NCBI GenBank assembly: GCA_937936325.1
Contig: CALGWV010000031.1
Span: forward strand, 1-47,855
DNA length: 47,855 bases
Direction of reading: 5' to 3'
Source of the DNA: an uncultured Bdellovibrionales bacterium
GTDB lineage: Bacteria; Bdellovibrionota; Bdellovibrionia; Bdellovibrionales; UBA1609
Shown: positions 31,173 through 47,768 of the stretch, piece after piece
Numbering within the stretch: the first letter of the stretch is position 1
Layout of the letters: every line of letters starts with the position of its first letter
Translations under genes and position numbers: made by a program
The notes under the pieces: model-generated
Database searches by the model: none
What the model was told of the DNA's origin: nothing
Seen by the model: the letters and a program-made list of their open reading frames with translations, nothing else

Positions 31173-32048
31173 ATGGGACATCAACACACTCATCAAAAAA
31201 ATGGAAAAGCACTCTTTTGGGCGATTTTAATTAACCTCCTTCTCACTGTCGCCCAAGTGATAGGAGGAGTGATTTCAGGAAGTCTTTCTTTACTTGCTGA
31301 TGCACTCCATAACTTCAGTGATGCCGGAGCCCTGATCATTGCTTACATTGCTCAAAGAGTTTCCGGCCTTCCTGCAAATAAAGAGATGACTTTCGGTTAT
31401 GGAAGGGCCCAGATTCTAGGCGCCCTTATCAACAGCGTCACATTAGTTATAGTTGGCTTATACCTAATTTATGAATCATGGGAGCGATTTTACTCTCCGT
31501 CCAGTATAGATGGCTGGATGGTGGTTTGGATTGCAGGTCTAGCTCTAGTGATTGACCTATTCACTGCTTGGCTCACCCATGAAGGCTCAAAACATAGTAT
31601 AAATATGAGGGCTGCGTTTATCCACAATCTATCAGACGCACTCGCTTCTGTAGTTGTAATTATCTCAGGGGTATTGATAATTAATTATAAAATATTCTGG
31701 GTTGATCTTGCCGCAACCTTGCTCATTTCAGCGTATATTTTATACCAGTCAATTGGGCTAATAAAAAGTAGTGTAAAAACTCTTATGCAAGGTGTTCCTG
31801 AAGACTTAAATCAAAGTGAAATAGTAGAAGAGTTAAAAAAAATAGATGGCATCAAAGATATTCATCATATACACATTTGGGAAATTCATGAAAAATTTAG
31901 ATCTTTTGAGTCCCATATAGTAATCAATTCAAAAGATCTTGAAAAAGCGATCCAAGTGAAAAAAAGCGTTAAAAAGAAACTCAAGCAGATTTTTAAAATT
32001 GACCATTCAACACTTGAAATAGAATTCTCAAAAGACGAGTGCAAGTAG
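31173..32048 (+). CDS. czcD: Cation diffusion facilitator (CzcD/ZitB-like) with a cytoplasmic C-terminal domain
   Basis: N-terminal MGHQHTHQ. Site A residues in LLADALHNFSDA (TM2) and FIHNLSDALAS (TM5). C-terminal ferredoxin-like domain (IKDIHHIHIWE). Confidence 0.85.
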   Translation: MGHQHTHQKNGKALFWAILINLLLTVAQVIGGVISGSLSLLADALHNFSDAGALIIAYIAQRVSGLPANKEMTFGYGRAQILGALINSVTLVIVGLYLIYESWERFYSPSSIDGWMVVWIAGLALVIDLFTAWLTHEGSKHSINMRAAFIHNLSDALASVVVIISGVLIINYKIFWVDLAATLLISAYILYQSIGLIKSSVKTLMQGVPEDLNQSEIVEELKKIDGIKDIHHIHIWEIHEKFRSFESHIVINSKDLEKAIQVKKSVKKKLKQIFKIDHSTLEIEFSKDECK

Positions 32049-32204
32049 CATTTAATTTTTTTACCCACCGCCAGCTTCCTATTTATTTAAAAAATCCGCT
32101 TTGATTCTTGGAGTGGATTTTGTATGAGTTTTAAATATGCTCCCACAACTTTTTACTCTGATTTATGGTAATTCATACTTATTTATGTTTAGACTATATT
32201 AGAC

Positions 32205-33208: not shown

Positions 33209-33223
33209 TGGCATCAGTCTTGC
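33209..33223 (+). promoter_or_regulatory. Sigma-54 (-24/-12) promoter
   Basis: TGGCAT-CAGTC-TTGC has exact consensus spacing (GG and GC 10 nt apart). It lies directly upstream of the operon, whose first gene is itself a sigma-54 activator. Confidence 0.7.
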
Positions 33224-33258
33224 CTATAGAGGGAGTGAGTATGATTGAAGGGGAACAA

Positions 33259-34698
33259 ATGAATTACAATATCCTTATAGCAGATGATGAAGAGCATATC
33301 TTATTAGACTACGAATCCAAGCTCGTTCGTCACTTAGACATAAACACAACTTTTGTAAGCTCCCCTGAAGAAGTAATAGAAATTTATAATAAAAATATAG
33401 ATAAGTATGCTGTGGTAGTTCTCGATTATAATTATCGTGACTCGAACTTAAATGGGGCATCTCTTGCAAAAAAAATCAAAGCAGTTAACCCTAAACAAGC
33501 AATACTCATTTGCTCTGGCCTAAATGATCAAGACCCTGCAATTGAAAGCTTCAAAGCTGGCGCAGTCGATTTTATAAAGAAAGGCTGCGACGTTAGCGAT
33601 ATTGTTGAAAAAATTCGAAGTCACTTCAAAAAATATGATGAAACGAGACGGGTTCTTGATTTTAATACATCTAAAAAAGCAAGGCTAACTAAAAACTCAA
33701 ACTTAATCTCAAAAATTGGCTTAGTGGGACAGTCGGACTCATTAGCTGAAGTCGCAAAGCAAATTGGAATTATAAGTGATTACGGATCTAATTCAACCGT
33801 CTTGATAAGAGGTGAATCAGGTACAGGAAAGGAGTTACTTGCAAAAGCTGTACATAAGTTTTCTTCTAGAAGCAATAAAATGTTCCTACCAATTAATTGT
33901 GGTGCAATACCTAAAGACCTTCTTGAAAGTGAACTTTTTGGTCATGAGAAAGGATCTTTTACTGGGGCAGTTACAAAAAAAATTGGAAAATTTCAACTAG
34001 CAAACGGTGGCACAATTTTTCTTGATGAAATTGGCGATCTTGATAGGCAGTTACAAGTTAAGTTACTGCGAGTCTTGCAGGAAGGAACAATAGAGCCTAT
34101 TGGCTCTAATAGCTCAATGACGGTAGATGTAAAAATAATTGCGGCTACACACGTCAATCTTGAAGATGCAATTGAGAGAGGAGACTTCCGAGAAGATCTT
34201 TATTATAGGTTAAATGTAATACCTCTCACCGTTGCTCCTTTGAGGCAAAGGTTAGAGGATATTGAGCCTCTAGTACTACACTTCATGGAGAAGCACCCGA
34301 ACGGAAAAGATAAAAAGTTCTTATACAAAACTATTCAATATCTTAAATCGTATCCTTGGAGAGGAAATGTAAGAGAACTAGAAAATATCGTAAACGGATT
34401 GCTAACAATGACTCTTAGTAATGAAATAAGACCGGAGCACCTGAGCGAAGATTTTTTTGTTACTGATGATGTGCAATTTGAAGATTTTAAAGGGAGCTTC
34501 GAAGAACTCAAAATCAGACTCCAAGACTACAGTGACAAGGTCCAAAAAGACTATATTTTAAAGAAGATTAGAAACCTGCCTACTCCGCTTTCATTCAGAA
34601 CTGCCGCGGAAAAAATAAATATTTCAAAGAGTTCCTTGAAAAGAAAACTCGACTCATGGGGATATTCATCAAAAGAGGTTTTTAACGATGGCAATTAG
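33259..34698 (+). CDS. NtrC-family sigma-54-dependent response regulator (REC + AAA+ + Fis-type HTH)
   Basis: REC domain (NILIADDEE...VVLDYNY). Walker A GESGTGKE, GAFTGA-type loop EKGSFTGA, Walker B IFLDEIG, R-finger region. C-terminal HTH (FRTAAEKINISKSSLKRKL). Start chosen at MNYNILI (33259) because the ATG at 33241 would leave almost no leader after the predicted promoter. 33241 remains possible. Confidence 0.9.
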   Translation: MNYNILIADDEEHILLDYESKLVRHLDINTTFVSSPEEVIEIYNKNIDKYAVVVLDYNYRDSNLNGASLAKKIKAVNPKQAILICSGLNDQDPAIESFKAGAVDFIKKGCDVSDIVEKIRSHFKKYDETRRVLDFNTSKKARLTKNSNLISKIGLVGQSDSLAEVAKQIGIISDYGSNSTVLIRGESGTGKELLAKAVHKFSSRSNKMFLPINCGAIPKDLLESELFGHEKGSFTGAVTKKIGKFQLANGGTIFLDEIGDLDRQLQVKLLRVLQEGTIEPIGSNSSMTVDVKIIAATHVNLEDAIERGDFREDLYYRLNVIPLTVAPLRQRLEDIEPLVLHFMEKHPNGKDKKFLYKTIQYLKSYPWRGNVRELENIVNGLLTMTLSNEIRPEHLSEDFFVTDDVQFEDFKGSFEELKIRLQDYSDKVQKDYILKKIRNLPTPLSFRTAAEKINISKSSLKRKLDSWGYSSKEVFNDGN

Positions 34699-35773
34699 TT
34701 CAATCAAAAATTTTCTGATAACTCAACTCTTGAAAACTGTTAGAAGTCAGAATTTTTTGTCTATTCAACTCGATATTACAAATGCATGTAATCTAAACTG
34801 CTCGCATTGTTATCACTCCCATCACAAAAATAAGGGGGCGATAAATCTAAGTCAGTGGAAAGAGATTATTGATCAGTATGATTTGCTGTTGCAAAAACTT
34901 ATCCTGAAGCCAAGGATAGTTATCTGTGGTGGGGAACCCTTGGTAAGCCCTATGCTTTTACCTTTAATCGAGTATATTAACCATAAGTGGCCAAAAACAG
35001 AAATTTCAATATTAACTAATGGAACAACTATAAATCGTAAATTATTAGAAAAACTAATTGATTATAATGTTGAATTTCAAGTTTCTATTGATGGCCCAGA
35101 TTCAAATAGACATGATGAAATCAGAGGAGCAGGAAATTTCCTAAAAGCATTATCTGGTATAAAGTTATCCCAACAATATGGAATTAGAGTTGCAGTCCTC
35201 ACCGTTCTATCTAAAAAAACATCATTTTGGATATATGATTTCTTTGATTTAGCTAAAACCATTGGCGTATGTTCAATGAATTTTACTAGATTCATTCCCC
35301 AAGGTAATGGGTATAAGCTGGTTGAAAATGGTTTAGATCGTGCTTTAACTGCTTTTGAGCTGAAAGAGTCATTTACGAAAATTTATGAAACTGGAAAATT
35401 ATTAAAAGTTAAGACAGGAACAAATCAGCCTTTATTTCATTTAGTAGATAGCTCTTTAGGTTCCAATGGAAATTTTGGTTTTCAAGGAATTGTAGTTGAT
35501 TATAAGGGAAATTTTAAAATCTCAAGTAGAGCTGATTACATAATTGGAAATATACTAGAAACAGGGCTTGAAAACTTATTTTTGAAAAATCCAATCATGA
35601 AAGAGCTTAGAAAAGGCAATATAGAAAAATGTGGATCATGTGTTCACTACTCAAGATGTGGTGGAGATAGAAATATAAGTTTCGCAGAAACTGGAAGTTT
35701 TTTAAAAGCCGACAGTGGTTGTTGGTTTAATTTAGAGAGTACATCTATAGACCTAGGAGGGAAGGTTATATGA
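34688..35773 (+). CDS. Radical SAM enzyme with a C-terminal SPASM/twitch-type Cys cluster (peptide/protein maturase class)
   Basis: CNLNCSHCY (CxxxCxxC), GGEPL and NGT motifs. C-terminal CGSCVHYSRCGG...SGCW. Overlaps the regulator gene by 11 nt. Confidence 0.85.
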   Translation: MAISSIKNFLITQLLKTVRSQNFLSIQLDITNACNLNCSHCYHSHHKNKGAINLSQWKEIIDQYDLLLQKLILKPRIVICGGEPLVSPMLLPLIEYINHKWPKTEISILTNGTTINRKLLEKLIDYNVEFQVSIDGPDSNRHDEIRGAGNFLKALSGIKLSQQYGIRVAVLTVLSKKTSFWIYDFFDLAKTIGVCSMNFTRFIPQGNGYKLVENGLDRALTAFELKESFTKIYETGKLLKVKTGTNQPLFHLVDSSLGSNGNFGFQGIVVDYKGNFKISSRADYIIGNILETGLENLFLKNPIMKELRKGNIEKCGSCVHYSRCGGDRNISFAETGSFLKADSGCWFNLESTSIDLGGKVI

Positions 35774-36111
35774 AAAATTTAAGAAAAGTGTATTTGATTT
35801 TATTATCAATTCTACCAATTTCATCAGTTTCATTTGCTGCTGAATTTGAAAGACAAATTGGAAATGCCTATAATGAGGCTGAATTCGATTTTTCAGGAGA
35901 GATGTTGAGAAAGCTAGAAGCTGAAAGTGATCAAGATATGAGTCCATATTATGAGTTTATGGATAAATACGAGATTGAAAGTCTAGAAACCTTAAAAACG
36001 AGAGAGTATAAACCACACTTAAACAGAATGCTTAAGTTCTACGTTGATGAAAAATTTGGAAATAACTCAAGTGTAGCAGCATCTCTAAGTCAAATTACTG
36101 GAGAGCACTAA
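35770..36111 (+). CDS. Small acidic exported protein of unknown function (113 aa)
   Basis: ATGA overlap with the radical SAM stop. GGAGG RBS. Signal peptide MKNLRKVYLILLSILPISSVSFA. The mature part is rich in Glu/Asp/Tyr/Phe. Confidence 0.7.
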   Translation: MKNLRKVYLILLSILPISSVSFAAEFERQIGNAYNEAEFDFSGEMLRKLEAESDQDMSPYYEFMDKYEIESLETLKTREYKPHLNRMLKFYVDEKFGNNSSVAASLSQITGEH

Positions 36112-36114
36112 ATA

Positions 36115-37641
36115 ATGAAAAAGATAGCATTAGCTCTTACTGGAGCATTTCTCATCACGGTGACATATATGACAATCCAAAATAATAAAGAAACTAAAAC
36201 AGTATTAAATGTTGGTTTTCCTGGATATTGGAAAGACTTGATTCCAGCACTACAACATACAGCATTAGCTGATGCTATTCTACATAACCAATTTGAAGCA
36301 CTTGTTGGAGGCGGTCATGGTGGTGCAATTGTTCCTCATGCGGCAAAGTCATGGAAAATTAGTGAAGATAAGAAAGTGATTGTATTTAAAATAGATACGT
36401 CTAAAAAATTTTCCAATGGGAAAAAATTAAAGGCTAAGCATTTTAAGGAATCTTGGGAGCATGGCTTATCATTGGAATCAAAATCAGCGAATAGTAGTTT
36501 ACAAGACGTTATTTACAAAATTGTCGGTTATCAAGATTTTAAAAATACGGGAAAGCTTTCAGGCGTGTCGGCTCCAGATGATGAAACTCTTATTGTAGAA
36601 TTTGAAAAACCTTTCAGAATGGGTCTTGCACACTTGATGGGTGCAAGAATGGCCGCATTTATTATCGAAGACGGAAAATATCTTGGCACAGGCCCGTATA
36701 TTATCCATGACTCAACTGAAAAAAAAGTACATTTAACCAAAAATCCATTTAACAAATCAGATGCTTATTTCGAAAGAATTAATATTGAAGTTGTTCCTTC
36801 TAGTGAGGCTGAAAGCGCTCTTCAAAGTGGGAAAATTGATTTATATGCATTTGCCGAAATTACTAAATTAAAAGATTGCTTCTTAGAAAATAAAAAAACA
36901 GGTTGCCAGTCTGGTATGGAAAGCAGACATATGACTCTAAATGTTAATGGCAAAAAAGGAAGGTTTTTTAGTAATCCCAACTACAGAAAAGCTCTTCAGT
37001 ATCTTCTACATCAGGGGATAGAAGATTCTTTTCCGAACGAAGAAAAGTTCAAGACTAAGGTAGATCCTCAAATATACCTACCCTTGCAATCTGGACGAAT
37101 TGAAAGTGACAGAGCAAATGAAATAATTGAAGATGGAAAAAAATACGTAGATGATTTTATTAAGGCTACTGAAAAAAATCCGTTATTTTTCGCAACTTTT
37201 AATAAACATTCATGGATTAAAGGTATTCTCGAAAATAAAGGGGTTAAACTTTCACAAGAGTCTGTCAAAATTAAAGGCTCTCGTGTTTTAGAAATGTTTT
37301 ATAAAACCCACGAGCCTGACTTGTTATTTACTTTTGCTAGCGTTGCAAGTGGAGATCCAGATGGAATCTATCACGTGCTTGGAAAACACGGCTCTATTTC
37401 ATCGCCTATGATACAACGAAGTAAGGTAGCGGAAATTCTTGAAAGTGGTCGGAGTATAACTGATCCAAGTGAAGTGAACCGTCACTATAAAAAAGTGAGT
37501 GAAGTCGTTTTAGAAGAAGTTCCTTTTGTACATCTTGGCTTTTTAAAGACTGTTGTCGTTTTTAGAAAAGACAGAATTAATGTAAGAAAGAAGTTTGTTG
37601 AACGATCAGACAATCAATTTACAGCATATGAAGCCTTGTGA
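36115..37641 (+). CDS. Family-5 (peptide/nickel type) solute-binding protein, orphan (no ABC permease/ATPase nearby)
   Basis: 508 aa with an N-terminal signal anchor. The length and N-terminal region (LNVGFPGYWKDLIPALQHT...LVGG...AKSWKISEDKK) resemble SBP_bac_5. Starts 3 nt after the previous stop. Confidence 0.7.
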   Translation: MKKIALALTGAFLITVTYMTIQNNKETKTVLNVGFPGYWKDLIPALQHTALADAILHNQFEALVGGGHGGAIVPHAAKSWKISEDKKVIVFKIDTSKKFSNGKKLKAKHFKESWEHGLSLESKSANSSLQDVIYKIVGYQDFKNTGKLSGVSAPDDETLIVEFEKPFRMGLAHLMGARMAAFIIEDGKYLGTGPYIIHDSTEKKVHLTKNPFNKSDAYFERINIEVVPSSEAESALQSGKIDLYAFAEITKLKDCFLENKKTGCQSGMESRHMTLNVNGKKGRFFSNPNYRKALQYLLHQGIEDSFPNEEKFKTKVDPQIYLPLQSGRIESDRANEIIEDGKKYVDDFIKATEKNPLFFATFNKHSWIKGILENKGVKLSQESVKIKGSRVLEMFYKTHEPDLLFTFASVASGDPDGIYHVLGKHGSISSPMIQRSKVAEILESGRSITDPSEVNRHYKKVSEVVLEEVPFVHLGFLKTVVVFRKDRINVRKKFVERSDNQFTAYEAL

Positions 37642-39320
37642 AAGATGAACAGATGATAAGCCTTAATAAATGGTTTGCTAGAAATGCTAGATACCCATTA
37701 ATTTTATCATCTGTCTTTATAGCGATAGTCACAATTGTTTTTATCTCAACAGCTTTTATTAAGAAAGAACGAAACCAAATAAGTGTTATAAAACAACTTA
37801 CTCAAAGTATTTTTGCAGTTGCTATTACACAAAACAACAGACCATTGTTGGAGTCTGCTTTTACTGTTGCTGCCGAAGACCTTGGAGTTAACGTTATTAT
37901 ACTTTGTAACAATGATGAAGAAATGCTTTCAATTCCCTTCTCTATAGAAAGCTGCAAAAAGCTACCCAAAGCAAAAATCACAGAGAAGTTTGTAACATTT
38001 CAGCCTTCGGGATTTTCATCGTACAGAGTATATGCATATATAGACAGGTTGCACAATTCTTGGTCATTGATATATACTGCTGCTTTCACGTTTTTCTTCT
38101 TAATAATAACATTCTTACTAACTTATCGAGTCCAATGGATTTTTGATAAGGAAATAATTTCTCCAATTGCAAATCAATTGTTATCAGAAAAAGAAATTAA
38201 AATTTTAGAGATAAACGATTTGCGAAAAAACTTAAAACAAAAAGAGATGCTGATGGAAAAGGAATTATCTGCCAGCTCAGCCATTGCGCACAAAAAAAGT
38301 TTAGCTCATAATATAAAATCCAAAATTCATACATTAAGGAGTGTTCACAGTGAAATCAACAAACTAATTCCTGAAAGAAGTAACAAAACACTTTCTAGTT
38401 TAATCAAGTCCTTCACAACTATGCATAATAATCTCAACGATATAGTTCAGAAAGAAGTAGAGGATATTCCATTATCAAAAGAATCATTCGATGAAACTAT
38501 TTCTCTTGTTAATAGAAATAGGTCTTTCGTTAATATTATAGAGGTACTAAATTCTTGCATTGAACACAAAAAAAGCGAATTTAAAAAAATTAAAATTCAC
38601 TTTGATCTAACACCTAATCTTTTAGTTTTTTCAAAAATTTCAGAGTTGCAATTTAGACACATAATTTCGAACTTAATTAATAATTCAATCGAAGCAAATG
38701 CCTTAGAAATAAATTTTGAAATAAAGATAGATTCAGAAATAATTATTAGAGTAATAGATAATGGAAACGGGATTGCGCCTGACGTGATAGACAGCTTGTT
38801 TGAAAAAGACATAACTGCTGGGAAAATAGGTGGAACTGGATTTGGCTTATTTCATGCTAAAAGATTTTTAGAGTCCTGGAATGGAACCATCAAAGTGCTT
38901 AAAACAGATAATGCAGGATCAACATTTGAGCTTAGCTTGCCTAAATGGGAGCCTCAGAGAATAGAAATACCATTAAACTCGAAAGTATCAATTCTTGATG
39001 ACGACCCAAATGTACATGAAAACTGGGAAAACTTATTGGGTAAAAGAAAAGATGTCACAATAACTAAGTTTAATAATACAAATGATTTTGAAAGATGGAT
39101 TGATGAAGACGTTACTGACTATTCAAATCTACTCTGCTTCATAGATAATGACTTAGGCGAAAAGACTACTGGATCTGAATTAATAGTCTCTCTTGGTATA
39201 CAAAATATTTGCTCTTTGGTAAGTAACAGTTTCGATGACCCAGTAGTTGTTAGTCGTTGCGAAAGTAGCAACATTCCAATAATTCCAAAAATAGCTTTAG
39301 AAAAATACATTTCAATCTGA
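37638..39320 (+). CDS. Hybrid sensor histidine kinase (2 TM + periplasmic loop + HisKA-like + HATPase_c + C-terminal receiver)
   Basis: GTGA overlap with the SBP stop (alternative ATG at 37653). H-box-like LAHNIKSKIHTL, N box SNLINNSIEAN, G1 DNGNGI, G2 GGTGFGL. Receiver-like tail (VSILDDDP...CFIDNDLG). Confidence 0.8.
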   Translation: MKDEQMISLNKWFARNARYPLILSSVFIAIVTIVFISTAFIKKERNQISVIKQLTQSIFAVAITQNNRPLLESAFTVAAEDLGVNVIILCNNDEEMLSIPFSIESCKKLPKAKITEKFVTFQPSGFSSYRVYAYIDRLHNSWSLIYTAAFTFFFLIITFLLTYRVQWIFDKEIISPIANQLLSEKEIKILEINDLRKNLKQKEMLMEKELSASSAIAHKKSLAHNIKSKIHTLRSVHSEINKLIPERSNKTLSSLIKSFTTMHNNLNDIVQKEVEDIPLSKESFDETISLVNRNRSFVNIIEVLNSCIEHKKSEFKKIKIHFDLTPNLLVFSKISELQFRHIISNLINNSIEANALEINFEIKIDSEIIIRVIDNGNGIAPDVIDSLFEKDITAGKIGGTGFGLFHAKRFLESWNGTIKVLKTDNAGSTFELSLPKWEPQRIEIPLNSKVSILDDDPNVHENWENLLGKRKDVTITKFNNTNDFERWIDEDVTDYSNLLCFIDNDLGEKTTGSELIVSLGIQNICSLVSNSFDDPVVVSRCESSNIPIIPKIALEKYISI

Positions 39321-40347: not shown

Positions 40348-40581
40348 ATGAATAAGTTTAACAAACGAAAATTTGAAAAAGAAGAAATTGAAAGATTTGC
40401 CAACAAGTTGGTGGAAGTTTTTAAAAATCATTATGGGATTGATATTACTTATGGAAATTTGAACTTTGTCTACCACCAAGGGGTCTGTAAAAGTGTAACT
40501 CTTGAATCAAGAAATCGAATTTGTAATTTCAGAGAATCAGTAGACAAGCCCGTAATTAAGTTTGCAAAGAAGGTGTCATGA
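40348..40581 (+). CDS. Hypothetical small basic protein
   Basis: GGGGGA RBS. ATGA overlap with the following large gene. Confidence 0.5.
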   Translation: MNKFNKRKFEKEEIERFANKLVEVFKNHYGIDITYGNLNFVYHQGVCKSVTLESRNRICNFRESVDKPVIKFAKKVS

Positions 40582-43500
40582 ATACAGATAAAGACATAAG
40601 TCTTCCAATCGCACTATTGCTTTTCGGAGCAATAGTCGCTGTTTTCTTAGGACTGCACTTTAAAGCAGATATTTACGGGATCTTAGAGATTTCAGATATT
40701 TTGTATAAGGAGTACAGAACCTATATTCTAATTTTCTTAAGTATCATATTTTTAAACACGATCATATCGTCTTTATATTTAAGAAGGCTTCTGGGCCTCT
40801 CTAAACAAGGGGCAAGATTAAACTCGATTAGACCTAATGGAGCCAGTGTATCTCAACGAGGGATAATTTTTCTAGTAACTCTTCTGACCTCAATTCTAAT
40901 GATGACTTTGGTTAGTGATCAATTCATCCCAAAATTTCCAGAAGCGATTGGGGCTTTAGAGATTTTCAAATGGCAATCGTTTTTCTTCAAGTTCAACTTA
41001 GGACTTTTTGCTGCATTTGTATTTTACAGAATAATAGGATTTCTAAAGGTTGATGATCTTTTTTCATCAAGAGTTAAAATTAAAAGATTCCCTAAGGCCA
41101 AGAGTCAAATCACTCTAGGCACATCCCCAGCAGATAAGAAAGAAAAATGGGTCAGTTTAGATAGAAAGGCCTTAAACGGTTCAATATTAATCACCGGCTC
41201 AATTGGCTCGGGTAAAACTGCTGGTGCCATGCTCCCGTACTTTAAACAAGTACTCACTAATTTTGATCGAAAATCTATTTTAGCAATTGATCCTAAAAGA
41301 ACTTTCGTTGATGAAGCACAAAATCTTATAGACCAGTACAATCCAGAATCTATTGTAAGAAGAATAACTCTCGGTGGAACCGAAAAATACAATCCAATTT
41401 ATCTGAATAAGGTTCTTAAAAATACAAGATTTCTGGTTGTCACAAAGATGTTGATGCAAAGTGCTGCTAACTTTTCAAATGATGGGAGCAAAAATTCTTT
41501 TTGGGATCAAAGTGCGTTCAACCTTGTCAAAAATTCTTTGATCTACTGTGCGGCAATGAGCGAGTACTATACTCTCAATGAGCTATACAGTGCTTTAATT
41601 AGGGCCACAACTGTAGACCTCGCTGATGACTTAGAAAAAATGCTTTTAACTAAAAAGAGTGATTCTAAATTTGATGAAGAGGAACTCTTTAACATCAATT
41701 GCGCCATAAATTACTTTAAGCTTGAATTTAAATGCTATGACCAGAAAATAAAAACTAGTGTTTTGGCCACAGCAACAAGTTTTCTAAATCAGTTTCAAGA
41801 ATACCAAGCTTCACAGATCTTTTGCCCTCCTAAGGATGAACGAACCATATTGAGCATTGATGAGGTTGTGGACAAGGGAGAAATCATTCTATTTGATGTA
41901 GATAACCCTGCTTTAGCTAAATCAATGGGAACAATTATAAAGCTTCAATACGAAGATTCAATTTTAACCAGAGTTGCTGATAAAAAACGAGGTAAAGAAG
42001 TTCCGGCCTTTCTCATAATAGATGAGGCACAAGACGTTGTGAGTTCTGCTGGAGGTGATGGGCTTGGAGATGACAGATTCTTAGCTAAGTGTCGTGAAGC
42101 AAATGCCATTTGTATTATGGCCTCTCAAAGTTATTCATCTATTCAAAGTACATTTAAAAGTGAGGTGGCAACAAGAGAGCTTGTTCAAAACTTTAGAACA
42201 AGAATCGCTTTTCACTCCGCAGATGAGAAAACCATAAACAATTACAAAGAATTAGTAGGCCAATCTGAAAGTGAAAAGAAATCTCACAGCATTTCAGAGA
42301 TAGCCCAAAAAACAGAGAAAAACTATTTACTAGGAGGTTTTGATTCAAAAGACGCAAATATCAGTGAGTCGATTAACATCAGCACACAAAAAGAATGGGA
42401 TATTACAGGAAGAGAGTTCACAAGCTTAGGAACTTTTGAAGCTTGGGGGCTAGTTTATAATGGGAAAAGGACAGAGCTTAAGAAGCTCTATATGAAACCA
42501 AACTTTCTTGAAAGGCCCGAGACTGTCCATAGCAAGGTTCTAGATTCATTGTCACCAGAGGCAACTGGTCTACTTAGGAAGTCAGTGAGGTGGATTCTCG
42601 GAGCTTTAACAGGCCTTGCAATAACATCTTCGGCAAATGCTTTTCCATCTATTTGCTCAGTGATTAATCAGCCTAGCTTTAGGTCCTGCTTTTCTTTTAA
42701 CGTAAGTCCAACGATGTGTGGAAGTTTCCCGCCAAGGCCATGTGCGAGACTTAGCTATTATGTGCCTCAAACTTTCATTGAAACGACCAGCAGCAAAGGA
42801 CTTTCTCACTTCTCATCTCTTCCCATAGCAGCGGCCCAGTTAGCGGGAGTCATCAAGAAAAAGCCTTACGGGGCCGTGAATGATGATGACACTCAGTCAT
42901 TTCAGGCAAGGACAATTGCAGTCCCGCTAACGCAAATGGCTTTTTCAGGGATGCCTTGTGGCGGGGCAAGGCAAGAAAAAATGTGTTTCGATGGCATGAG
43001 CGAACACATAGACACTCACTGGTCTACGGGCAAAGGCGATCTCTTGCAGCCTGCTTTTCTAGCATGGAAAGTTAGTCCAAAGCTCTGCCTCTTGAAAGGG
43101 GCCGCCACCTCCGTGGTAGGCGGCCCCACTGGGGTTGTAGGAGCTGGATCACCTAGTTGCAGTATGCCGTTTCAAACCCTTCCAGTATTTCCTCCATCGG
43201 GTATGCCAGTATGTACAGGCTGGGGTGTGATGTTTCCAAGATACGGAACAACTGTTGGCGGCTCAGAGGTAATGGGCTCACTTAATATAGCGAGCAGAAT
43301 TAAAAGTCTCTCTGTTGAGGTTTTTAAAAATATGCCTGCTGGCTTTGATGAAAAATGGTCTATGCTCTCACCAAATTCAAGTCAGTGCTTCAGAGAATTT
43401 GAAAACATGGGAAAGCTTGAAACATTCAACCTCGTGAATAACCGAGGAAGAACTATCGGAAAAGATTTACGTGGAAACTTATTCACCACATGGAAGAGAG

Positions 43501-43586
43501 TCAGTTGCACAAGAGATTGGGCGGCAGTTCCTTTTTATAAAGCTCAAGTCGAGCTTTTAAGTGCAATATGTAAGGGGCTTAACTAA
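40578..43586 (+). CDS. Type IV coupling-protein-like ATPase (TraD/VirD4-like) continuous in frame with a TraU-like periplasmic domain
   Basis: N-terminal TM helices, Walker A GSIGSGKTAG and Walker B FLIIDEAQD. Then an internal signal-peptide-like segment RWILGALTGLAITSSANA. The Cys-rich C-terminal 330 aa is collinear with my recollection of F TraU (MFPRYGTT..SEVMGSL / MYPFNGWV..SSPLQSS; SQCFREF / GQCHPFG; TTWKRVSC / LMWRKRNC). Confidence 0.6.
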   Translation: MNTDKDISLPIALLLFGAIVAVFLGLHFKADIYGILEISDILYKEYRTYILIFLSIIFLNTIISSLYLRRLLGLSKQGARLNSIRPNGASVSQRGIIFLVTLLTSILMMTLVSDQFIPKFPEAIGALEIFKWQSFFFKFNLGLFAAFVFYRIIGFLKVDDLFSSRVKIKRFPKAKSQITLGTSPADKKEKWVSLDRKALNGSILITGSIGSGKTAGAMLPYFKQVLTNFDRKSILAIDPKRTFVDEAQNLIDQYNPESIVRRITLGGTEKYNPIYLNKVLKNTRFLVVTKMLMQSAANFSNDGSKNSFWDQSAFNLVKNSLIYCAAMSEYYTLNELYSALIRATTVDLADDLEKMLLTKKSDSKFDEEELFNINCAINYFKLEFKCYDQKIKTSVLATATSFLNQFQEYQASQIFCPPKDERTILSIDEVVDKGEIILFDVDNPALAKSMGTIIKLQYEDSILTRVADKKRGKEVPAFLIIDEAQDVVSSAGGDGLGDDRFLAKCREANAICIMASQSYSSIQSTFKSEVATRELVQNFRTRIAFHSADEKTINNYKELVGQSESEKKSHSISEIAQKTEKNYLLGGFDSKDANISESINISTQKEWDITGREFTSLGTFEAWGLVYNGKRTELKKLYMKPNFLERPETVHSKVLDSLSPEATGLLRKSVRWILGALTGLAITSSANAFPSICSVINQPSFRSCFSFNVSPTMCGSFPPRPCARLSYYVPQTFIETTSSKGLSHFSSLPIAAAQLAGVIKKKPYGAVNDDDTQSFQARTIAVPLTQMAFSGMPCGGARQEKMCFDGMSEHIDTHWSTGKGDLLQPAFLAWKVSPKLCLLKGAATSVVGGPTGVVGAGSPSCSMPFQTLPVFPPSGMPVCTGWGVMFPRYGTTVGGSEVMGSLNIASRIKSLSVEVFKNMPAGFDEKWSMLSPNSSQCFREFENMGKLETFNLVNNRGRTIGKDLRGNLFTTWKRVSCTRDWAAVPFYKAQVELLSAICKGLN

Positions 43587-44755
43587 TGGCAATAAAAGTA
43601 ATAAATGGTCTAACAACAACCTACACACTTTCTTCTGAGGAGAAACTTGAAAGCAGTGGAACTTATACAGGGCTTATAAGAGACTCAATTGATGAGGCGA
43701 TAAGATTGAACGCCAGTGACATTCATTTTGAACCTACAGAAAAAGGTTTTGTAATTCGGCACCGTATTTGTGGAAATCTTAAACTATTTTTTAATTTAGA
43801 AGAATCTAAAGATATTAAAATGCCGCCGGAGATTTTAAAAAATGGAATCACTACAACATTAAAATCTATTTCAAATATACCACTTGGAAGACAAAACGTT
43901 GCTCAAGACAGTGGAGTCAGTTTACCTAAACGAGGAGTAGACATTAGAGTTAACAAAATGCCGACCATTTATGGTGAAAAGTTTGTTTACCGCCTCTTTG
44001 ATAAAAATCAATCAACTGATCTAACCAAAATTGGCCTAACTCCTCAATCACTAAAGGACGTTATTGCAGCAACGAACAAGAAATCAGGACTGATTATTAT
44101 TACTAGTGAAACAGGAAGTGGTAAAACTTCTACAATTTATTCAATGATTGAGGCCATTGATAGGGGTTCACTAAATGTTTCAACTTTAGAAAATCCAGTT
44201 GAAAGAAACTTAAAAGGTGTGAATCACACAGCAGTAAATGACTCCTTCAGTTTTGCTGATGGGCTTAGAGCATTGATGAGGCAAGACCCAGATGTCATCG
44301 TTGTTGGAGAAATTAGAGATGAAGTGACCGCTAAACTTGCTGTAAGGGCAGCATCTACAGGGCACTTAGTTATCTCAACCATGCACACCAACACTGCTCT
44401 AAATATTCCTATGGTTTTTGAATACTATGGTGCTGACAAATTACAGATGATGAGATCGTTAATTTTAGGTGCGAATCAAAGACTAGTAAAAAGAATATGT
44501 CAAAACTGTGCATTATCTACCGAGAATGGATTCAAGAGAGCAAATGAAAAAGGATGTAGGCAATGTTTTTCTGGTTTTGAAAACAAAAGAGAGCTTCTCT
44601 TTGAATATTTCACAAGCGAGCAAATCAAAGAAAATATGGAATTGGGACTTAAGGTTTCAATGAATGAAATTTTTAACAATCTAGCAAAAAAAGGAGTCAT
44701 TGATGAACGTGAAATCTATCGTCAAGGTAGTTTGTTTAATTCAGACAGTGCTTAG
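43586..44755 (+). CDS. PilB/GspE-family secretion ATPase (short form, ATPase domain plus tetracysteine C-terminus)
   Basis: ASDIHFEP, Walker A SETGSGKTST, Asp box/Walker B LRALMRQDPDVIVVGEIRD, His box GHLVISTMHTN, CQNC...CRQC. TAATG overlap with the upstream gene. Confidence 0.8.
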   Translation: MAIKVINGLTTTYTLSSEEKLESSGTYTGLIRDSIDEAIRLNASDIHFEPTEKGFVIRHRICGNLKLFFNLEESKDIKMPPEILKNGITTTLKSISNIPLGRQNVAQDSGVSLPKRGVDIRVNKMPTIYGEKFVYRLFDKNQSTDLTKIGLTPQSLKDVIAATNKKSGLIIITSETGSGKTSTIYSMIEAIDRGSLNVSTLENPVERNLKGVNHTAVNDSFSFADGLRALMRQDPDVIVVGEIRDEVTAKLAVRAASTGHLVISTMHTNTALNIPMVFEYYGADKLQMMRSLILGANQRLVKRICQNCALSTENGFKRANEKGCRQCFSGFENKRELLFEYFTSEQIKENMELGLKVSMNEIFNNLAKKGVIDEREIYRQGSLFNSDSA

Positions 44756-45460
44756 TTTAAATCAAGCACTGGCAATTGATTTTTATAACGAGGGAATAGA
44801 CTACTGGCCTGAAGAAAAAAAGAAATAGCAGATACCACCAACAAAGGCTCTGCTAAAAAAATGCCAGACAAGTCTAAGAAAAAGTTTTCTTGGAAAGAAC
44901 ATTTAAACCCAAACAATGAGGAATTTTATAAAGAAGGAAACCATAGGCCACCAGCTCCATTTGTAGAGGTGGCAAAAAATCCTACAGATAAAAATATCTC
45001 AATGTGGCTTAAGTATCTTGAGATGAAAAATAAATTAGCATCAAGACTACAGAATAGAATTTCTGAGTACGTGCAAAAAAACAACAAAGTACCTATAGAG
45101 GTCAACTTAAAGGAGGTAAAGAAAGTAAATATTAAAAACGCAGGAAGGTTTAAGATCAGAATGTACTTTGAATCGACTTGTCCACACTGCAAGAGGATGA
45201 TGGCAACCCTAAACCAATTGCAAAATGAAGGATACTACGTTGAAGCTTTACAGCTAAACAAAGGCCCACTACTCAGGGCCAGTTATCCTTTAAGGTTAAG
45301 TAGTGCAAAAGCTGGTGATGCAACAAAACACAAAATAACAAGTGTTCCGTTTACATTAATAGCTGATCTTAAAAATAAAGTGATTTCAAAGCCGATTACT
45401 GGTTTTCAATCACCGGAACAAATTAAAAATATACTTCTTCTAATGGAGAAGAAAAACTAA
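44703..45460 (+). CDS. TraF/TrbB-like periplasmic thioredoxin-fold protein, split into two frames at a poly-A tract
   Basis: Frame 0 (44703-44825) encodes a signal peptide plus DFYNEGIDYWPEE, comparable to the GWQWYNE motif of F TraF. Frame -1 (open from 44813; annotated ORF 44861-45460) encodes the body with CPHC and a C-terminus collinear with TraF. The frames switch at A AAA AAG. Confidence 0.6.
44816..44822 (+). promoter_or_regulatory. Candidate -1 frameshift site A AAA AAG
   Basis: The heptamer is in the correct zero-frame phase (GAA AAA AAG). A TAG stop lies one codon (3 nt) downstream of the heptamer. The inverted repeat TAGCAG (44826-44831) / CTGCTA (44850-44855) follows. Confidence 0.4.
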
Positions 45461-45519: not shown

Positions 45520-45915
45520 ATGAATAGCATCTTATTGCACTCCCGTGGTTCGCTGAATGTACTCTACGAGCTGTGGGATAAACATAAACATTGGTTGATT
45601 ATTCTTGGAGCACTCTTGCTTCCACTACTTGTCATTGTAGCGGAGACGCACGCACAGGTAAAAATTCCAGGCCAAGATCAGTCTCAGAAATTGCAAGCAG
45701 CCGGAACACTGCTGCGTTTGATAGACACTGCTCTTTTTGTATGGCTTGCAAGAATTTTTGCAGGGCTATGTATCTTAAGTGCAGGCTGGCTCATTAAAGA
45801 ACAAAAATTCGGCCCTGCCGTAGTTTGCGTCTTAGGAGCTTTAATAATCGGAACCTCACCATTGTGGGTGATTAATATATTTGAAGTCGGCGGTGGCGGC
45901 GGTGTCTTTAGATAA
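45520..45915 (+). CDS. Conjugative-type (TraA/VirB2/TrbC-like) propilin
   Basis: Long leader ending AETHA|Q. The mature part has two hydrophobic helices separated by the basic loop KEQKFG. Gly5 C-terminal tail. It sits immediately upstream of TraL/TraE/TraK-like genes, the F-type order. Confidence 0.6.
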   Translation: MNSILLHSRGSLNVLYELWDKHKHWLIILGALLLPLLVIVAETHAQVKIPGQDQSQKLQAAGTLLRLIDTALFVWLARIFAGLCILSAGWLIKEQKFGPAVVCVLGALIIGTSPLWVINIFEVGGGGGVFR

Positions 45916-45929: not shown

Positions 45930-46241
45930 ATGTATGATTATGATGAATTAAGAAAAACCCATCAAACCAAGATTAGTCAAACTCTAGACTCACCAATCAT
46001 GTTCGCTGATTTGTGGGAACTTAGAGACATTTTATTAAGTTTGATTTCAATTCTTGTATTCGGACTTATTTTCTACTCTTGGAAACTGTTAATTCTTTCG
46101 TTGATTTGGACTCTTTTAATAAATCCAAGGATTAAAAGAAATAACAACAGAGGGATTCTAATTCATTGGCCATACAAAATTTTTGGAATGGGCCTTAGAG
46201 GGTTAATGAACCCCAAAGGAAACAAACGGTATTCAGATTAA
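45930..46241 (+). CDS. traL: TraL-like type-F pilus assembly protein
   Basis: 103 aa. TLDSPIMFADLWELRDI followed by one long TM region, then NRGILIHWPYKIFGM, matching my recollection of the TraL family pattern. Confidence 0.6.
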   Translation: MYDYDELRKTHQTKISQTLDSPIMFADLWELRDILLSLISILVFGLIFYSWKLLILSLIWTLLINPRIKRNNNRGILIHWPYKIFGMGLRGLMNPKGNKRYSD

Positions 46242-46252
46242 GGAGAAAAATT

Positions 46253-46489
46253 ATGAGTAATTCAAATGATTCAAAAAATGAAACGAAAGGGAGAGATTTT
46301 TATGACCACAAACCTATTAGAGAATTTAAAGCGAGTATTTCTAAAAACGGAAAATTCTGGCTCTTTAAAGACATCACAACCCATATTGTCCCGAGGAAGT
46401 ATGTATCTAAAATTGATATGGACTTCAATCAAGAGCAAGTTGCTGATTCTAGCAGTGGCGATCAAAAGGCTGAACAACGAAATGCTTAG
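46253..46489 (+). CDS. Hypothetical small protein
   Basis: Strong AGGAG RBS 8 nt upstream. Its stop overlaps the next start (ATGCTTAG). Preferred over the competing long ORF that starts at 46266. Confidence 0.5.
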   Translation: MSNSNDSKNETKGRDFYDHKPIREFKASISKNGKFWLFKDITTHIVPRKYVSKIDMDFNQEQVADSSSGDQKAEQRNA

Positions 46490-47171
46490 TTCAATTGATA
46501 AGGGGGTTAAAGCGGCTGAAATCAGTCGCCCCCCTGCTGGAGTTTATGGTGATGTTGATCTCAGGGTGCTACCAAAATATATCAGCTATAAGGCATCAAA
46601 CTTAAGGGAGAAAACAAATCTTCATTTCGTGATGGGGCTTATGCTTTTAGCATGGATCTCAACTTTCGTTATTCAAAATAATAGAGTTGAGTATTGGCAG
46701 ACAAAATTTAGAGAAAAAGAGTTTATTCTTGTTCCATCTAAGATTGTCGGTCACACTCCCGCTACCCCACAATCAGTTCCAGACTCTTATGTGAAATTTG
46801 CTGTTAAGTCATTTATTCAAATGTCAGGTACAACAACGCCAAGTGGAATCAGGGATCAGCTAGAACGCTTTGCTGGCTATATGGAGAAAAAGCTTGGGTC
46901 TCGGTACTTAGCTGATATGGAGGAATGGATTGAGCTTTCTGAAAAGAAAGGACTCTATGAACAAGTTGAACATACCAATCTTAAATTTGCCTATCATAAA
47001 AAAAGTGGCGTCATTGATGTTGATGTTGTCTTAAGACGAGATCGAAGAGAGAACGCTGATTTTCTAGGAACGGCAATGGAAAAAATGAAGATGACCCTAC
47101 TTGTACAGCAACCCAAACCGGATCAAGAGTGGACGTTTAAGATCGTTAAATATTCACGAAAACCAATGTAG
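46482..47171 (+). CDS. traE: TraE-like type-F pilus assembly protein
   Basis: Single N-terminal TM (LHFVMGLMLLAWISTFVIQ) followed by a periplasmic domain. Position between the TraL-like and TraK-like genes. Start chosen at the ATG at 46482. Confidence 0.55.
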   Translation: MLSSIDKGVKAAEISRPPAGVYGDVDLRVLPKYISYKASNLREKTNLHFVMGLMLLAWISTFVIQNNRVEYWQTKFREKEFILVPSKIVGHTPATPQSVPDSYVKFAVKSFIQMSGTTTPSGIRDQLERFAGYMEKKLGSRYLADMEEWIELSEKKGLYEQVEHTNLKFAYHKKSGVIDVDVVLRRDRRENADFLGTAMEKMKMTLLVQQPKPDQEWTFKIVKYSRKPM

Positions 47172-47180
47172 AGGAGAAAC

Positions 47181-47768
47181 ATGAGATATTTTTATTTATT
47201 ATTTTATATGGCATTTTCTGTAAATGCGTTTGCAGAAGAAACTAAAGAAGTCTTTTTTGGAACATCAACTGAAACCATTACGATTCCATTTGGAGAGCCA
47301 ACGGTTTTAAAGTTTGAAAAGCGTATTAAAAGGTACAGTAATTCTTCAAGTTATATCATTAATCCTGAAGATGAGCTAAACCCCGATTATACTACTTTGA
47401 GTGTTGTTCCAAAATTCACTAAAGGAAGTGAGAAGATCACTTTCATTTTAGAAAACGAGAAAATCGCAAGGATCAGGTTTAAAACAGAGTTCAATGAAGA
47501 AAAAGAGTTTAAAGAACTCACATTTGAACTTCGAGCTAAATCACACCTTGATAAGTCAAAGGCCCCTCCCATTGGTGAGGTAGAATTATTAAAAGCGATG
47601 GTTGGAGACAATGAAGTTGCAGGGTTTTCTAGAAAAGTAGTTTCTAAAACTCTCAGATCGGGTCAAAAAGGCGTATCAAAGAAGCTTGTAAGGATCTATG
47701 AGGGAAGAAATATGAATGGGTATGTTTTTAAGCTCACAAGTCATTTGTACAGAAATAAGAGCCTGTAA
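47181..47768 (+). CDS. traK: TraK-like (secretin-like) T4SS protein, probably C-terminally short
   Basis: Signal peptide. KITFILENEKI parallels PFTFILETERG of F TraK. 195 aa versus about 240 aa for F TraK. Confidence 0.5.
   Translation: MRYFYLLFYMAFSVNAFAEETKEVFFGTSTETITIPFGEPTVLKFEKRIKRYSNSSSYIINPEDELNPDYTTLSVVPKFTKGSEKITFILENEKIARIRFKTEFNEEKEFKELTFELRAKSHLDKSKAPPIGEVELLKAMVGDNEVAGFSRKVVSKTLRSGQKGVSKKLVRIYEGRNMNGYVFKLTSHLYRNKSL

What the first reader, a model, noticed from the sequence alone, without database searches (positions are those of the whole stretch)
40578..43586. Coupling-protein-like ATPase fused in frame to a TraU-like periplasmic domain through an internal signal-peptide-like segment
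The 1002-aa ORF has N-terminal TM helices and Walker A/B motifs (GSIGSGKTAG, FLIIDEAQD) like TraD/VirD4-type coupling proteins. From about residue 670 it shows RWILGALTGLAITSSANA|FPS, a textbook signal peptide with an AxA site. A Cys-rich segment of about 330 aa follows, collinear with F-plasmid TraU as I remember it. No stop codon separates the two parts. An in-frame GTG at 42585, preceded by AGGAAG, would give MRWILGALTGLAITSSANA, so TraU could also be made separately from an internal start. A TM-linked cytoplasmic-ATPase/periplasmic-TraU fusion is topologically coherent, but I do not know of a described example.
Basis: partly seen in the sequence, partly recalled or inferred. Interest (0 to 1): 0.7.

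Follow-up and report, generated by a model that had tools for sequence, protein, structure and literature searches.

The report
Conserved coupling-protein–TraU fusion gene
One 1002-codon gene in a Bdellovibrio-like bacterium really does join the cytoplasmic motor that feeds substrates (such as DNA) into a conjugation-type secretion machine to a periplasmic assembly protein (TraU) through an internal export signal; the fusion is conserved in about 70 related genomic loci and in no paper I could find.

Summary
ORF 40578-43586 (+) encodes four N-terminal TM helices and a T4CP ATPase. The ATPase passes the Pfam T4CP thresholds and matches Cagβ and TrwB by Foldseek. A signal-peptide-like linker (aa 665-688, ANA|FPS) follows, then a 314-aa domain with 12 cysteines. 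That domain misses Pfam TraU on its own. However, 16 of 20 homologues at 39-64% identity hit PF06834, and a family profile aligns collinearly with F TraU (hhalign E 3.8e-5).

The fusion is conserved. 97 other proteins of at least 940 aa share it. 69 of the 70 loci examined that carry a T4CP next to TraU (the window included; Bdellovibrionota MAGs) have no stop at the junction. Across 56 non-redundant junctions the linker is otherwise unconserved, yet Ala is enriched at -1 and -3. The conserved FPNVC start of the TraU part follows, as it does after the N-terminal signal peptides of standalone relatives.

The likeliest mechanism is a precursor whose TraU domain is exported through the internal signal and probably released by signal peptidase I. 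An uncleaved tether remains possible. The internal GTG/AGGAAG start exists in the window but is not conserved (21% of junctions against 10% of controls). I rate this a new variant of a known kind. It links TraU to the coupling protein.

The parts
40578..43586 (+). Single 1002-codon gene encoding the T4CP-TraU fusion. Its ATG overlaps the stop of the upstream 77-aa ORF (ATGA).
   Evidence: 97 homologues of at least 940 aa with the same architecture
40578..41051 (+). N-terminal membrane domain, aa 1-158, with four predicted TM helices (7-25, 50-68, 95-113, 135-158). The K/R-rich loops 68-95 and 160-200 place the following ATPase in the cytoplasm.
   Evidence: hydropathy and charge count; helices in the AF2 model
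41103..42527 (+). T4CP nucleotide-binding and all-alpha domain, aa 176-650
   Evidence: Pfam PF10412, PF12696 and PF02534 above gathering score; Foldseek matches to Cagβ, TrwB and DotL; pLDDT about 90
41196..41219 (+). Walker A motif GSIGSGKT (aa 207-214)
   Evidence: G210, G212 and K213 invariant in 28 homologues
42009..42035 (+). Walker B motif FLIIDEAQD (aa 478-486)
   Evidence: E483 and D486 invariant, D482 nearly invariant
42570..42641 (+). Internal signal-peptide-like linker, aa 665-688: LLRKSVR (positive n-region), WILGALTGLAIT (h-region), SSANA (c-region with AxA). The predicted signal peptidase I site is A688|F689.
   Evidence: pLDDT about 40, belonging to neither domain
42576..42587 (+). 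AGGAAG followed by in-frame GTG (42585), a possible internal start that is specific to this lineage
   Evidence: not conserved across the family
42642..43583 (+). TraU-family periplasmic domain, aa 689-1002, with 12 invariant Cys. It starts with the family-conserved FP(N/S)(V/I)C.
   Evidence: AF2 pLDDT 85, pTM 0.88; no solved structural homologue
43586..44755 (+). Context: PilB/GspE-like secretion ATPase (389 aa). Its ATG overlaps the fusion gene's TAA by one base (TAATG). It is conserved directly downstream in relatives.
   Evidence: synteny
44861..45460 (+). Context: TrbB/TraF-like thioredoxin-fold protein with a CPHC motif, a candidate periplasmic disulfide isomerase for the Cys-rich TraU domain
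45930..47768 (+). Context: start of the F-like mating-pair-formation genes: TraL-like (45930-46241), TraE-like (46266-47171) and TraK-like (47181-47768). The window ends here.
   Evidence: weak Pfam and NCBIfam hits; full clusters with TraB, TraC and TraG_N in relatives
33220..39320 (+). Context: conserved upstream regulatory module of sigma54 response regulator, radical SAM protein, small ORF, SBP_bac_5 protein and histidine kinase
   Evidence: the same module lies next to the cluster in L085 and L086

Best explanation
This is one real, anciently conserved gene of an F-like type IV secretion cluster in Bdellovibrionota. It encodes a precursor that joins the coupling protein (T4CP) to TraU. 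Shown: the gene is a single ORF, the architecture is conserved, and both domain identities hold. Inferred: four N-terminal TM helices anchor the protein with its ATPase in the cytoplasm. The hydrophobic segment after the ATPase (aa 671-688) then acts as an internal Sec signal running from cytoplasm to periplasm, so the 314-aa Cys-rich TraU domain is translocated. There it is oxidised, probably with help from the TrbB-like CPHC thioredoxin encoded two genes downstream. Signal peptidase I most likely cuts after ANA (A688|F689). That would release mature TraU starting FPSIC and leave the T4CP with the signal segment as a C-terminal membrane tail. Encoding both in one gene would give 1:1 synthesis and deliver TraU at the periplasmic face of the T4CP. 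This implies that TraU works with the coupling protein at the substrate-transfer step.
For: Single gene: the ORF is intact. 97 other proteins of at least 940 aa at 38-54% identity share the architecture. 69 of the 70 loci with T4CP next to TraU (window included) have one open frame across the junction. An exhaustive search of 1.84 billion representatives finds this TraU subfamily mostly as C-terminal domains of roughly 950-1050-aa proteins: 13 full-length fusions against 2 complete standalone forms. Domain identities. Topology: K/R-rich cytoplasmic loops, 12 invariant Cys only in the TraU part, and a CxxC thioredoxin neighbour. Cleavage: the linker varies in sequence and length, yet at fixed columns Ala is 32/56 at -1 (background 0.16, p about 2e-12) and 30/56 at -3 (p about 2e-10). 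Position -2 is bulky or charged in 38/56, and -4 to -6 are polar or helix-breaking. Standalone TraU relatives carry an N-terminal signal peptide ending at the same place, before the same FPN(V/I)C, so both forms would yield the same mature protein. The linker is a low-confidence helix outside both folded domains. Literature: F TraU is a signal-processed periplasmic protein assigned mainly to DNA transfer (PMC7555446), and TraU swaps between F plasmids restore DNA transfer but not piliation (PMC10939261).
Against: Cleavage is not demonstrated. No dedicated signal-peptide predictor was available. My loose -3/-1 rule is also met at 59% of control TM-helix ends, so only the position-specific pattern counts. 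The p-values ignore phylogenetic relatedness. Hydrophobic-core length (median 14) lies between true signal peptides (11.5) and the T4CP's own TM segments (about 16), so it does not discriminate. In F TraG a predicted internal SPase I site exists, yet the C-terminal domain appears to need to stay anchored (PMC7555446). The window's TraU half fails Pfam PF06834 on its own. No relaxase was seen within 10 kb of the fusion gene or its TraU homologue in the five relatives' loci with gene tables (L001-L003, L085, L086), so the substrate (DNA or protein) is unknown.
Confidence: 0.6

Rival explanations
1. Uncleaved tether. The hydrophobic segment is a fifth transmembrane helix and TraU stays covalently attached, giving a T4CP with a large periplasmic domain sitting above the ATPase hexamer.
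For: The fusion is kept in 69 of 70 T4CP-bearing loci, even in clades where the T4CP gene has split elsewhere. This suggests the covalent link itself may be selected. Hydrophobic cores reach 16-20 residues in about a third of junctions. The F TraG C-terminal domain seems to need membrane anchoring despite a predicted SPase I site (PMC7555446).
Against: A plain anchor does not need the position-specific A-x-A pattern with a bulky -2 residue and a polar c-region. Standalone relatives make a free, signal-peptide-processed TraU with the same mature N-terminus, and F TraU is a processed periplasmic protein (PMC7555446). In the window the core is only about 12 residues, short for a stable TM helix.
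Confidence: 0.27
2. Two products by internal initiation. TraU is made mainly from the in-frame GTG at 42585 (SD AGGAAG) as an ordinary secretory precursor, and read-through from the T4CP is incidental.
For: GTG 42585 with AGGAAG three bases upstream is present and would give MRWILGALTGLAITSSANA. Start plus SD is about twice as frequent at junctions as in control windows (21% against 10%).
Against: 79% of non-redundant fused junctions have no start plus SD in the right place, and only 7% have ATG plus SD. If the two parts were separate cistrons, there would be no reason for 69 of 70 loci to keep them in one frame without a stop. The window's SD-to-start spacing is short.
Confidence: 0.1
3. Artefact or pseudogene. 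A stop codon was lost by sequencing or assembly error, or by recent decay, and the normal state is two genes.
For: One related contig (L002, 2x coverage) has TAA at the junction followed by AAA ATG and a canonical signal peptide.
Against: The open junction recurs in about 70 independent assemblies from several technologies, at 38-66% identity. Both halves are under clear purifying selection, with about 100 invariant columns. Both halves fold confidently.
Confidence: 0.01

Closest known systems
F-plasmid TraD (T4CP) and TraU as separate proteins
   Same: The two protein families are the same. TraU is a Cys-rich periplasmic protein made with a cleavable signal peptide and is assigned mainly to DNA transfer (PMC7555446, PMC10939261). 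The surrounding genes are F-like: TraL, TraE, TraK, TraB, TraC, TraG and a TrbB-like protein.
   Different: In F, traU and traD are separate genes about 11 kb apart. Here they are one ORF. Sequence similarity to the F proteins is remote: BLASTP is not significant and hhalign gives E 3.8e-5 for TraU. The T4CP has four TM helices. A PilB/GspE-like ATPase, absent from F, follows the gene.
VirB3-VirB4 fusions in some T4SSs
   Same: This is a natural fusion of two T4SS subunits, taken as evidence of a strong functional link between them (PMC4027160).
   Different: VirB3-VirB4 joins an inner-membrane protein to a cytoplasmic ATPase on the same side of the membrane. Here the fusion joins a cytoplasmic ATPase to a periplasmic protein and needs an internal export signal.
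F TraG and its proposed TraG* fragment
   Same: It is an F-type T4SS inner-membrane protein with a large periplasmic C-terminal domain preceded by a predicted internal signal peptidase I site, after Ala451 (PMC7555446).
   Different: The protein families differ. For TraG, current evidence suggests the C-terminal domain must stay anchored (PMC7555446). It is therefore a precedent for the site but not for release.
Bradyrhizobium japonicum FbcH cytochrome b/c1 precursor (from my own knowledge, not retrieved here)
   Same: It is a bacterial polyprotein in which a membrane protein is followed by an internal signal peptide that exports, and is cleaved from, a periplasmic C-terminal protein.
   Different: It belongs to an unrelated respiratory system. 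My literature search returned no usable paper on it, so this comparison rests on memory.

Membership tests
Type IV coupling protein (VirD4/TraD/TrwB) | Pfam T4CP domains above gathering score | tested here: met
   PF10412 33.4 bits (cut-off 20.5), PF12696 29.4 (22), PF02534 21.9 (20.1)
Type IV coupling protein (VirD4/TraD/TrwB) | P-loop NTPase with Walker A and Walker B | tested here: met
   GSIGSGKT at aa 207-214 and IIDEAQD at aa 480-486; core residues invariant or nearly invariant in 28 homologues
Type IV coupling protein (VirD4/TraD/TrwB) | N-terminal transmembrane anchor with a cytoplasmic ATPase | tested here: met
   Four predicted TM helices, consistent with the positive-inside rule. 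Prediction only, and four helices instead of the usual two.
Type IV coupling protein (VirD4/TraD/TrwB) | TrwB-like fold (nucleotide-binding plus all-alpha domain) | tested here: met
   Foldseek on the AF2 model: Cagβ 8dol E 5e-14, TrwB 1e9s/1gki E about 1e-11 with TMt 0.64-0.69, DotL 6sz9 E 5e-9
Type IV coupling protein (VirD4/TraD/TrwB) | Encoded with a VirB4/TraC-containing T4SS cluster | tested here: met
   TraC_F_IV, TrbI/TraB, TraE and TraG_N lie downstream in L001, L003 and L085. The window is cut at TraK.
Type IV coupling protein (VirD4/TraD/TrwB) | Partner relaxase or oriT (conjugative role) | tested here: inconclusive
   No relaxase Pfam family is listed within 10 kb of the fusion gene (or its TraU homologue) in L001-L003, L085 and L086, or in the window ORFs scanned.
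SXT-type TraD (NCBIfam TIGR03743) | Score above the curated cut-off | tested here: not met
   38.2 bits against a cut-off of 366. It is the best NCBIfam hit but not a member.
TraU (PF06834) | Direct match to the Pfam model | tested here: not met
   No hit for the window's C-terminal half at E up to 1 or up to 0.01
TraU (PF06834) | Homology to accepted TraU proteins (transitive or by profile) | tested here: met
   16 of 20 full-length homologues at 39-64% identity hit PF06834, best E 9.3e-12. The family profile against F TraU gives hhalign E 3.8e-5, probability 71%, 221 collinear columns.
TraU (PF06834) | Cys-rich periplasmic protein preceded by a Sec signal | tested here: met
   12 invariant Cys, compared with 10 in F TraU (PMC10939261). 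A signal-like segment precedes it, but it is internal. Localisation is inferred.
TraU (PF06834) | Part of an F-like or G-like mating-pair-formation gene set | tested here: met
   TraL, TraE, TraK, TraB, TraC, TraG_N and a TrbB-like protein are neighbours
Sec signal peptide / signal peptidase I substrate | Positive n-region, hydrophobic h-region, c-region with small residues at -3 and -1 | tested here: met
   Window: LLRKSVR / WILGALTGLAIT / SSANA|F. Family: Ala 32/56 at -1 and 30/56 at -3, with a bulky -2.
Sec signal peptide / signal peptidase I substrate | Actual cleavage | not testable with these tools
   Needs protein chemistry. No signal-peptide predictor was available.

The most novel reading that the evidence does not exclude
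The gene encodes a true bacterial polyprotein. A cytoplasmic T4CP ATPase and periplasmic TraU are made as one chain, separated across the membrane by an internal Sec signal, and cut apart by signal peptidase I so that TraU is delivered next to the coupling protein. If so, TraU would be the periplasmic partner of the T4CP at the substrate-transfer step. That would assign a role to an F-specific subunit whose function and structure are still unknown, and it could be tested directly in F (TraD-TraU contacts).
Probability: 0.35. Interest if true: 0.75.

Novelty: new variant of a known kind. Interest (0 to 1): 0.6.

Why it matters
TraU is one of the F-specific periplasmic T4SS proteins. It has no solved structure and no confirmed function (PMC7555446; no PDB match). 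Genetic data tie it more to DNA transfer than to pilus production (PMC7555446, PMC10939261). A fusion with the coupling protein that is conserved over deep divergence is Rosetta-stone evidence that the two act together, so it gives a concrete and testable partner for TraU. It is also an unusual architecture: a large cytoplasmic ATPase and a disulfide-rich periplasmic protein in one chain, joined by an internal export signal. Annotation pipelines name these proteins only as T4SS DNA-binding or VirD4 proteins and miss the TraU half. Finally, it exposes a large, undescribed family of chromosomal F-like T4SS clusters in Bdellovibrionota. They occur in several copies per genome, carry their own sigma54 two-component module and a PilB-like ATPase, and have an unknown substrate.

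Tried and rejected
1. Direct Pfam and NCBIfam scans of the C-terminal half found no TraU hit. I rejected the reading "not TraU" because close homologues hit PF06834 and profile comparison supports it.

2. BLASTP of each half against F TraU and F TraD was not significant. The relationship is too remote for pairwise search.

3. PDB sequence and fold searches for the TraU domain found nothing. The best Foldseek E was about 1, and those hits are noise.

4. Hydrophobic-core length as a test of signal peptide against TM anchor was not decisive.

5. A loose -3/-1 rule (55/56 junctions) was dropped as evidence after a control showed 59% of ordinary TM ends also pass. I replaced it with fixed-column enrichment.

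6. I tested whether standalone-TraU loci keep T4CP remnants, after noticing QVFDGETKGFE upstream of L076. No tblastn or BLASTP support was found, and the upstream 59-aa ORF is in another frame. Not supported.

7. I first read P0032 and P0037 as T4CP-only split forms. This was wrong: they are the C-terminal two-thirds, including TraU, of genes split or frameshifted inside the T4CP.

8. Literature searches for a described T4CP-TraU fusion, or for Bdellovibrionota T4SSs, found nothing relevant. The FbcH precedent and Moore 1990 could not be retrieved.

9. A search of the window for integrase, relaxase or tRNA-flanked island signs found only tRNA-Met at 13236, far from the cluster.
Full report
**1. 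The observation**

ORF 40578-43586 (+) is a 1002-codon ATG-started frame. Its ATG overlaps the stop of a small upstream ORF (ATGA). Its TAA overlaps the ATG of the next gene by one base (TAATG).
- Walker A GSIGSGKT at aa 207-214 and Walker B FLIIDEAQD at aa 478-486.
- The segment RWILGALTGLAITSSANA|FPS at aa 671-688|689.
- An in-frame GTG at 42585 preceded by AGGAAG.
- 12 cysteines in the last 314 residues.

Hydropathy gives four N-terminal TM helices (7-25, 50-68, 95-113, 135-158). The K/R-rich loops at 68-95 and 160-200 place the ATPase in the cytoplasm.

**2. Identity of the two halves**

The N-terminal half passes the Pfam gathering scores of PF10412, PF12696 and PF02534. The AlphaFold2 model of the whole protein (pLDDT 80; ATPase region about 90) matches solved coupling proteins. 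These are H. pylori Cagβ (E 5e-14), TrwB (E about 1e-11, TMt up to 0.69) and Legionella DotL. It is not an SXT-TraD equivalog (38 bits against a cut-off of 366).

The C-terminal half gets no direct PF06834 or NCBIfam hit. The evidence that it is a TraU is indirect but consistent:
- A search with it returns 27 proteins, including standalone proteins of about 330 aa at 39-50% identity that carry PF06834. One is named "TraU family protein" in Bdellovibrionota bacterium FG-2.
- 16 of 20 aligned members hit PF06834, with best E 9.3e-12.
- The family profile aligns collinearly with F-plasmid TraU over 221 columns (hhalign E 3.8e-5, probability 71%).
- The domain folds confidently (pLDDT 85, pTM 0.88) but has no solved homologue by sequence or fold. 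This agrees with the literature statement that TraU has no structure (PMC7555446).

I therefore file it as a divergent TraU-family member.

**3. The fusion is real and conserved**

A search with the whole protein returns 127 relatives. 97 other proteins are at least 940 aa long, at 38-54% identity, and most are pre-annotated with both T4CP domains and PF06834. They come from NCBI, JGI, ENA and Logan assemblies.

In species-representative genomes I recovered 80 loci. Nearly all are labelled Bdellovibrionota (Bdellovibrionia, Bacteriovoracia, Oligoflexia). Many lie on 0.2-3.2 Mb contigs, and there are up to four copies per genome.

The loci classify as follows:
- 69 loci, counting the window and the two ENA metagenome loci L001 and L003, have T4CP and TraU in one frame with no stop at the junction.
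- Only L002, a 2x-coverage contig, has a stop. It reads TAA, then AAA, then ATG-KK and a canonical signal peptide.
- Eight loci (L076-L083) have a standalone TraU and no T4CP within 10 kb. L086, which is L076 with gene calls, shows the same neighbouring genes as fused loci.

An exhaustive HMMER pass over 1.84 billion representatives finds only 49 members of this TraU subfamily. It includes 13 full-length fusions, five shorter proteins (518-824 aa) with TraU at the C-terminus, and 2 complete standalone forms. A neighbour-joining tree of TraU domains places the standalone forms at five or more separate positions among fused ones, and the deepest branch is fused. The tree has no support values, so an old fusion with later losses is only a suggestion. 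A sequencing error or a recent pseudogene is excluded.

**4. The junction**

Across the family the T4CP ends with a conserved LKPxFL...H motif. The TraU part begins with a conserved FPN(V/I)C. The 20-45 residues between them vary in sequence and length but always contain a hydrophobic stretch.

In 56 non-redundant junctions, at columns fixed relative to FPNxC:
- Ala is 32/56 at -1 (local background 0.16, binomial p about 2e-12).
- Ala is 30/56 at -3 (p about 2e-10).
- Position -2 is bulky or charged in 38/56.
- Positions -4 to -6 are Ser, Pro, Gly, Asn or Thr-rich.

This is the signal peptidase I c-region pattern. The p-values ignore relatedness, but the surrounding linker has diverged beyond alignment. 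Standalone relatives have N-terminal signal peptides that end at the same point before the same FPNxC. Fused and standalone forms would therefore give the same mature TraU if the fused form is cut.

Two weaker tests did not help. A loose -3/-1 rule (55/56) is also met at 59% of ordinary TM-helix ends. Hydrophobic-core length (median 14) lies between true signal peptides (11.5) and TM segments (about 16). In the full-length model the linker (661-687) has pLDDT about 40 and belongs to neither domain.

**5. The internal-start idea**

The window's GTG with AGGAAG is real. Across the family, however, a start codon with an SD in the right place occurs at 21% of junctions against 10% of control windows inside the T4CP. 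ATG plus SD occurs at 7% against 3%. Separate cistrons would also not explain why 69 of 70 loci keep one frame without a stop. Internal initiation may add some TraU in this lineage, but it is not the family's mechanism.

**6. Mechanism**

*Shown:* one gene, a conserved architecture, both domain identities, an F-like gene neighbourhood, and a TrbB-like CPHC thioredoxin two genes downstream.

*Inferred:* the ATPase stays in the cytoplasm. The internal signal inserts from cytoplasm to periplasm and the Cys-rich TraU domain is translocated and oxidised. Signal peptidase I most likely releases it after A688.

The main rival is an uncleaved tether. It is supported by how stubbornly the fusion is kept. 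The F TraG precedent also favours it: a predicted internal SPase I site exists there, but the domain appears to need anchoring (PMC7555446). Under either reading the fusion argues that TraU acts with the coupling protein. This fits reports that TraU is needed mainly for DNA transfer (PMC7555446) and that TraU swaps restore transfer but not piliation (PMC10939261).

**7. Context**

The window is chromosomal. It carries sucA, ffh, a tRNA-Met and a metal-efflux region upstream.

The cluster starts with a conserved module of sigma54 response regulator, radical SAM protein, SBP_5 protein and histidine kinase (33220-39320). Four small ORFs follow, then the fusion gene and a PilB/GspE-like ATPase. 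That ATPase scores 252 bits against PilB but only 33 against VirB11. Next come the thioredoxin, a possible pilin, and TraL, TraE and TraK, where the window ends. Relatives continue with TraB, TraC and TraG_N.

No relaxase was seen within 10 kb of the fusion gene (or its TraU homologue) in five relatives' loci, so whether the system conjugates DNA is open.

**8. Comparison and novelty**

In F, traU and traD are separate genes about 11 kb apart. VirB3-VirB4 fusions are the accepted precedent for reading a T4SS fusion as a functional link (PMC4027160). No paper in the searchable library mentions a T4CP-TraU fusion or these Bdellovibrionota clusters. Database names cover only the T4CP half.

I rate it a new variant of a known kind, with interest 0.6. 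It would be notable to T4SS specialists and gives a testable partner for TraU, but it is built from known parts and the processing step is unproven.

Noticed in passing
L001 9288-9394; L003 2001-2044; L024 10815-10837; L031 4615-4628; L038 10707-10729; L039 1366-1388; L049 and L065 10821-10843: In one clade the T4CP itself is a true two-gene split between Walker A and the rest of the ATPase (window aa about 258-269). The upstream ORF ends ...YLGDxNANI*. The DNA reads TTAGGAGAT-N5-ATGCAAACATTTAA, so a conserved SD is followed by an ATG in the +1 frame that overlaps the TAA by 14 nt. The downstream ORF (about 745 aa) still carries the TraU fusion. Splitting a P-loop ATPase between Walker A and Walker B is unusual. 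L042 and L006 are split at other points.
   Followed up: partly
window 43586-44755; L001 11598-12746; L085 13036-14187; L086 11014-12111: A PilB/GspE-like ATPase (252 bits against PilB, 33 against VirB11) always follows the TraU part, and in the window its start overlaps the upstream stop. F-type systems have no such ATPase, so this looks like a hybrid between an F-like T4SS and a type IV pilus or T2SS motor.
   Followed up: partly
window 33220-39320; L085 1615-7857; L086 1551-8479: A module of sigma54 response regulator, radical SAM protein, small ORF, SBP_bac_5 protein and histidine kinase is conserved next to the T4SS cluster across lineages at 40-54% identity. This suggests signal-controlled expression. 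The role of the radical SAM and small-ORF pair (a possible modified peptide) is unknown.
   Followed up: no
L076-L083, L086: Some clusters have a standalone TraU in the same slot, with the same small ORFs upstream and the PilB-like ATPase downstream, but no T4CP within 10 kb. Several of these genomes also carry a fused cluster elsewhere (FG-2, CA_2019_TPBF_116, 3300045789_46).
   Followed up: partly
L045, L047, L051, L053 (Bdellovibrionota bacterium FG-1); other genomes with 2-3 loci: There are up to four paralogous T4CP-TraU clusters per genome, many on Mb-scale contigs. It is unclear whether they are ICEs or resident systems.
   Followed up: no
L007 2967-5438; L011 9989-12406; L048 9782-12406; L055 9932-12421: Fusion proteins of about 805-875 aa start near window aa 187 and so lack the N-terminal four-TM domain. 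I did not check whether that domain is encoded separately upstream.
   Followed up: no
L002 9990-10003: This is the only junction with a stop: GGA CAA TAA AAA ATG, in the same frame as the T4CP, followed by a canonical MKKLF... signal peptide. The contig has 2x coverage, so I could not decide between a real fission and an error.
   Followed up: partly
window 45520-45915: A 131-aa ORF has a long leader ending ETHA|QV and two hydrophobic helices. It sits just before the TraL-like gene and is a likely TraA/VirB2-type pilin, but it has no Pfam or NCBIfam hit.
   Followed up: no
window 14600-32100: A metal-resistance-like region lies upstream. It has two RND (AcrB/CzcA-type) pumps with HlyD (one carrying a heavy-metal-binding domain) and OEP partners, two cation-diffusion-facilitator genes, and a MauE/glutaredoxin protein. 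GC content is lower there (0.33-0.39).
   Followed up: no
L085 7910-8635: In the closest full-length relative, a TIR_2-domain protein is inserted on the opposite strand between the histidine kinase and the small ORFs that precede the fusion gene.
   Followed up: no
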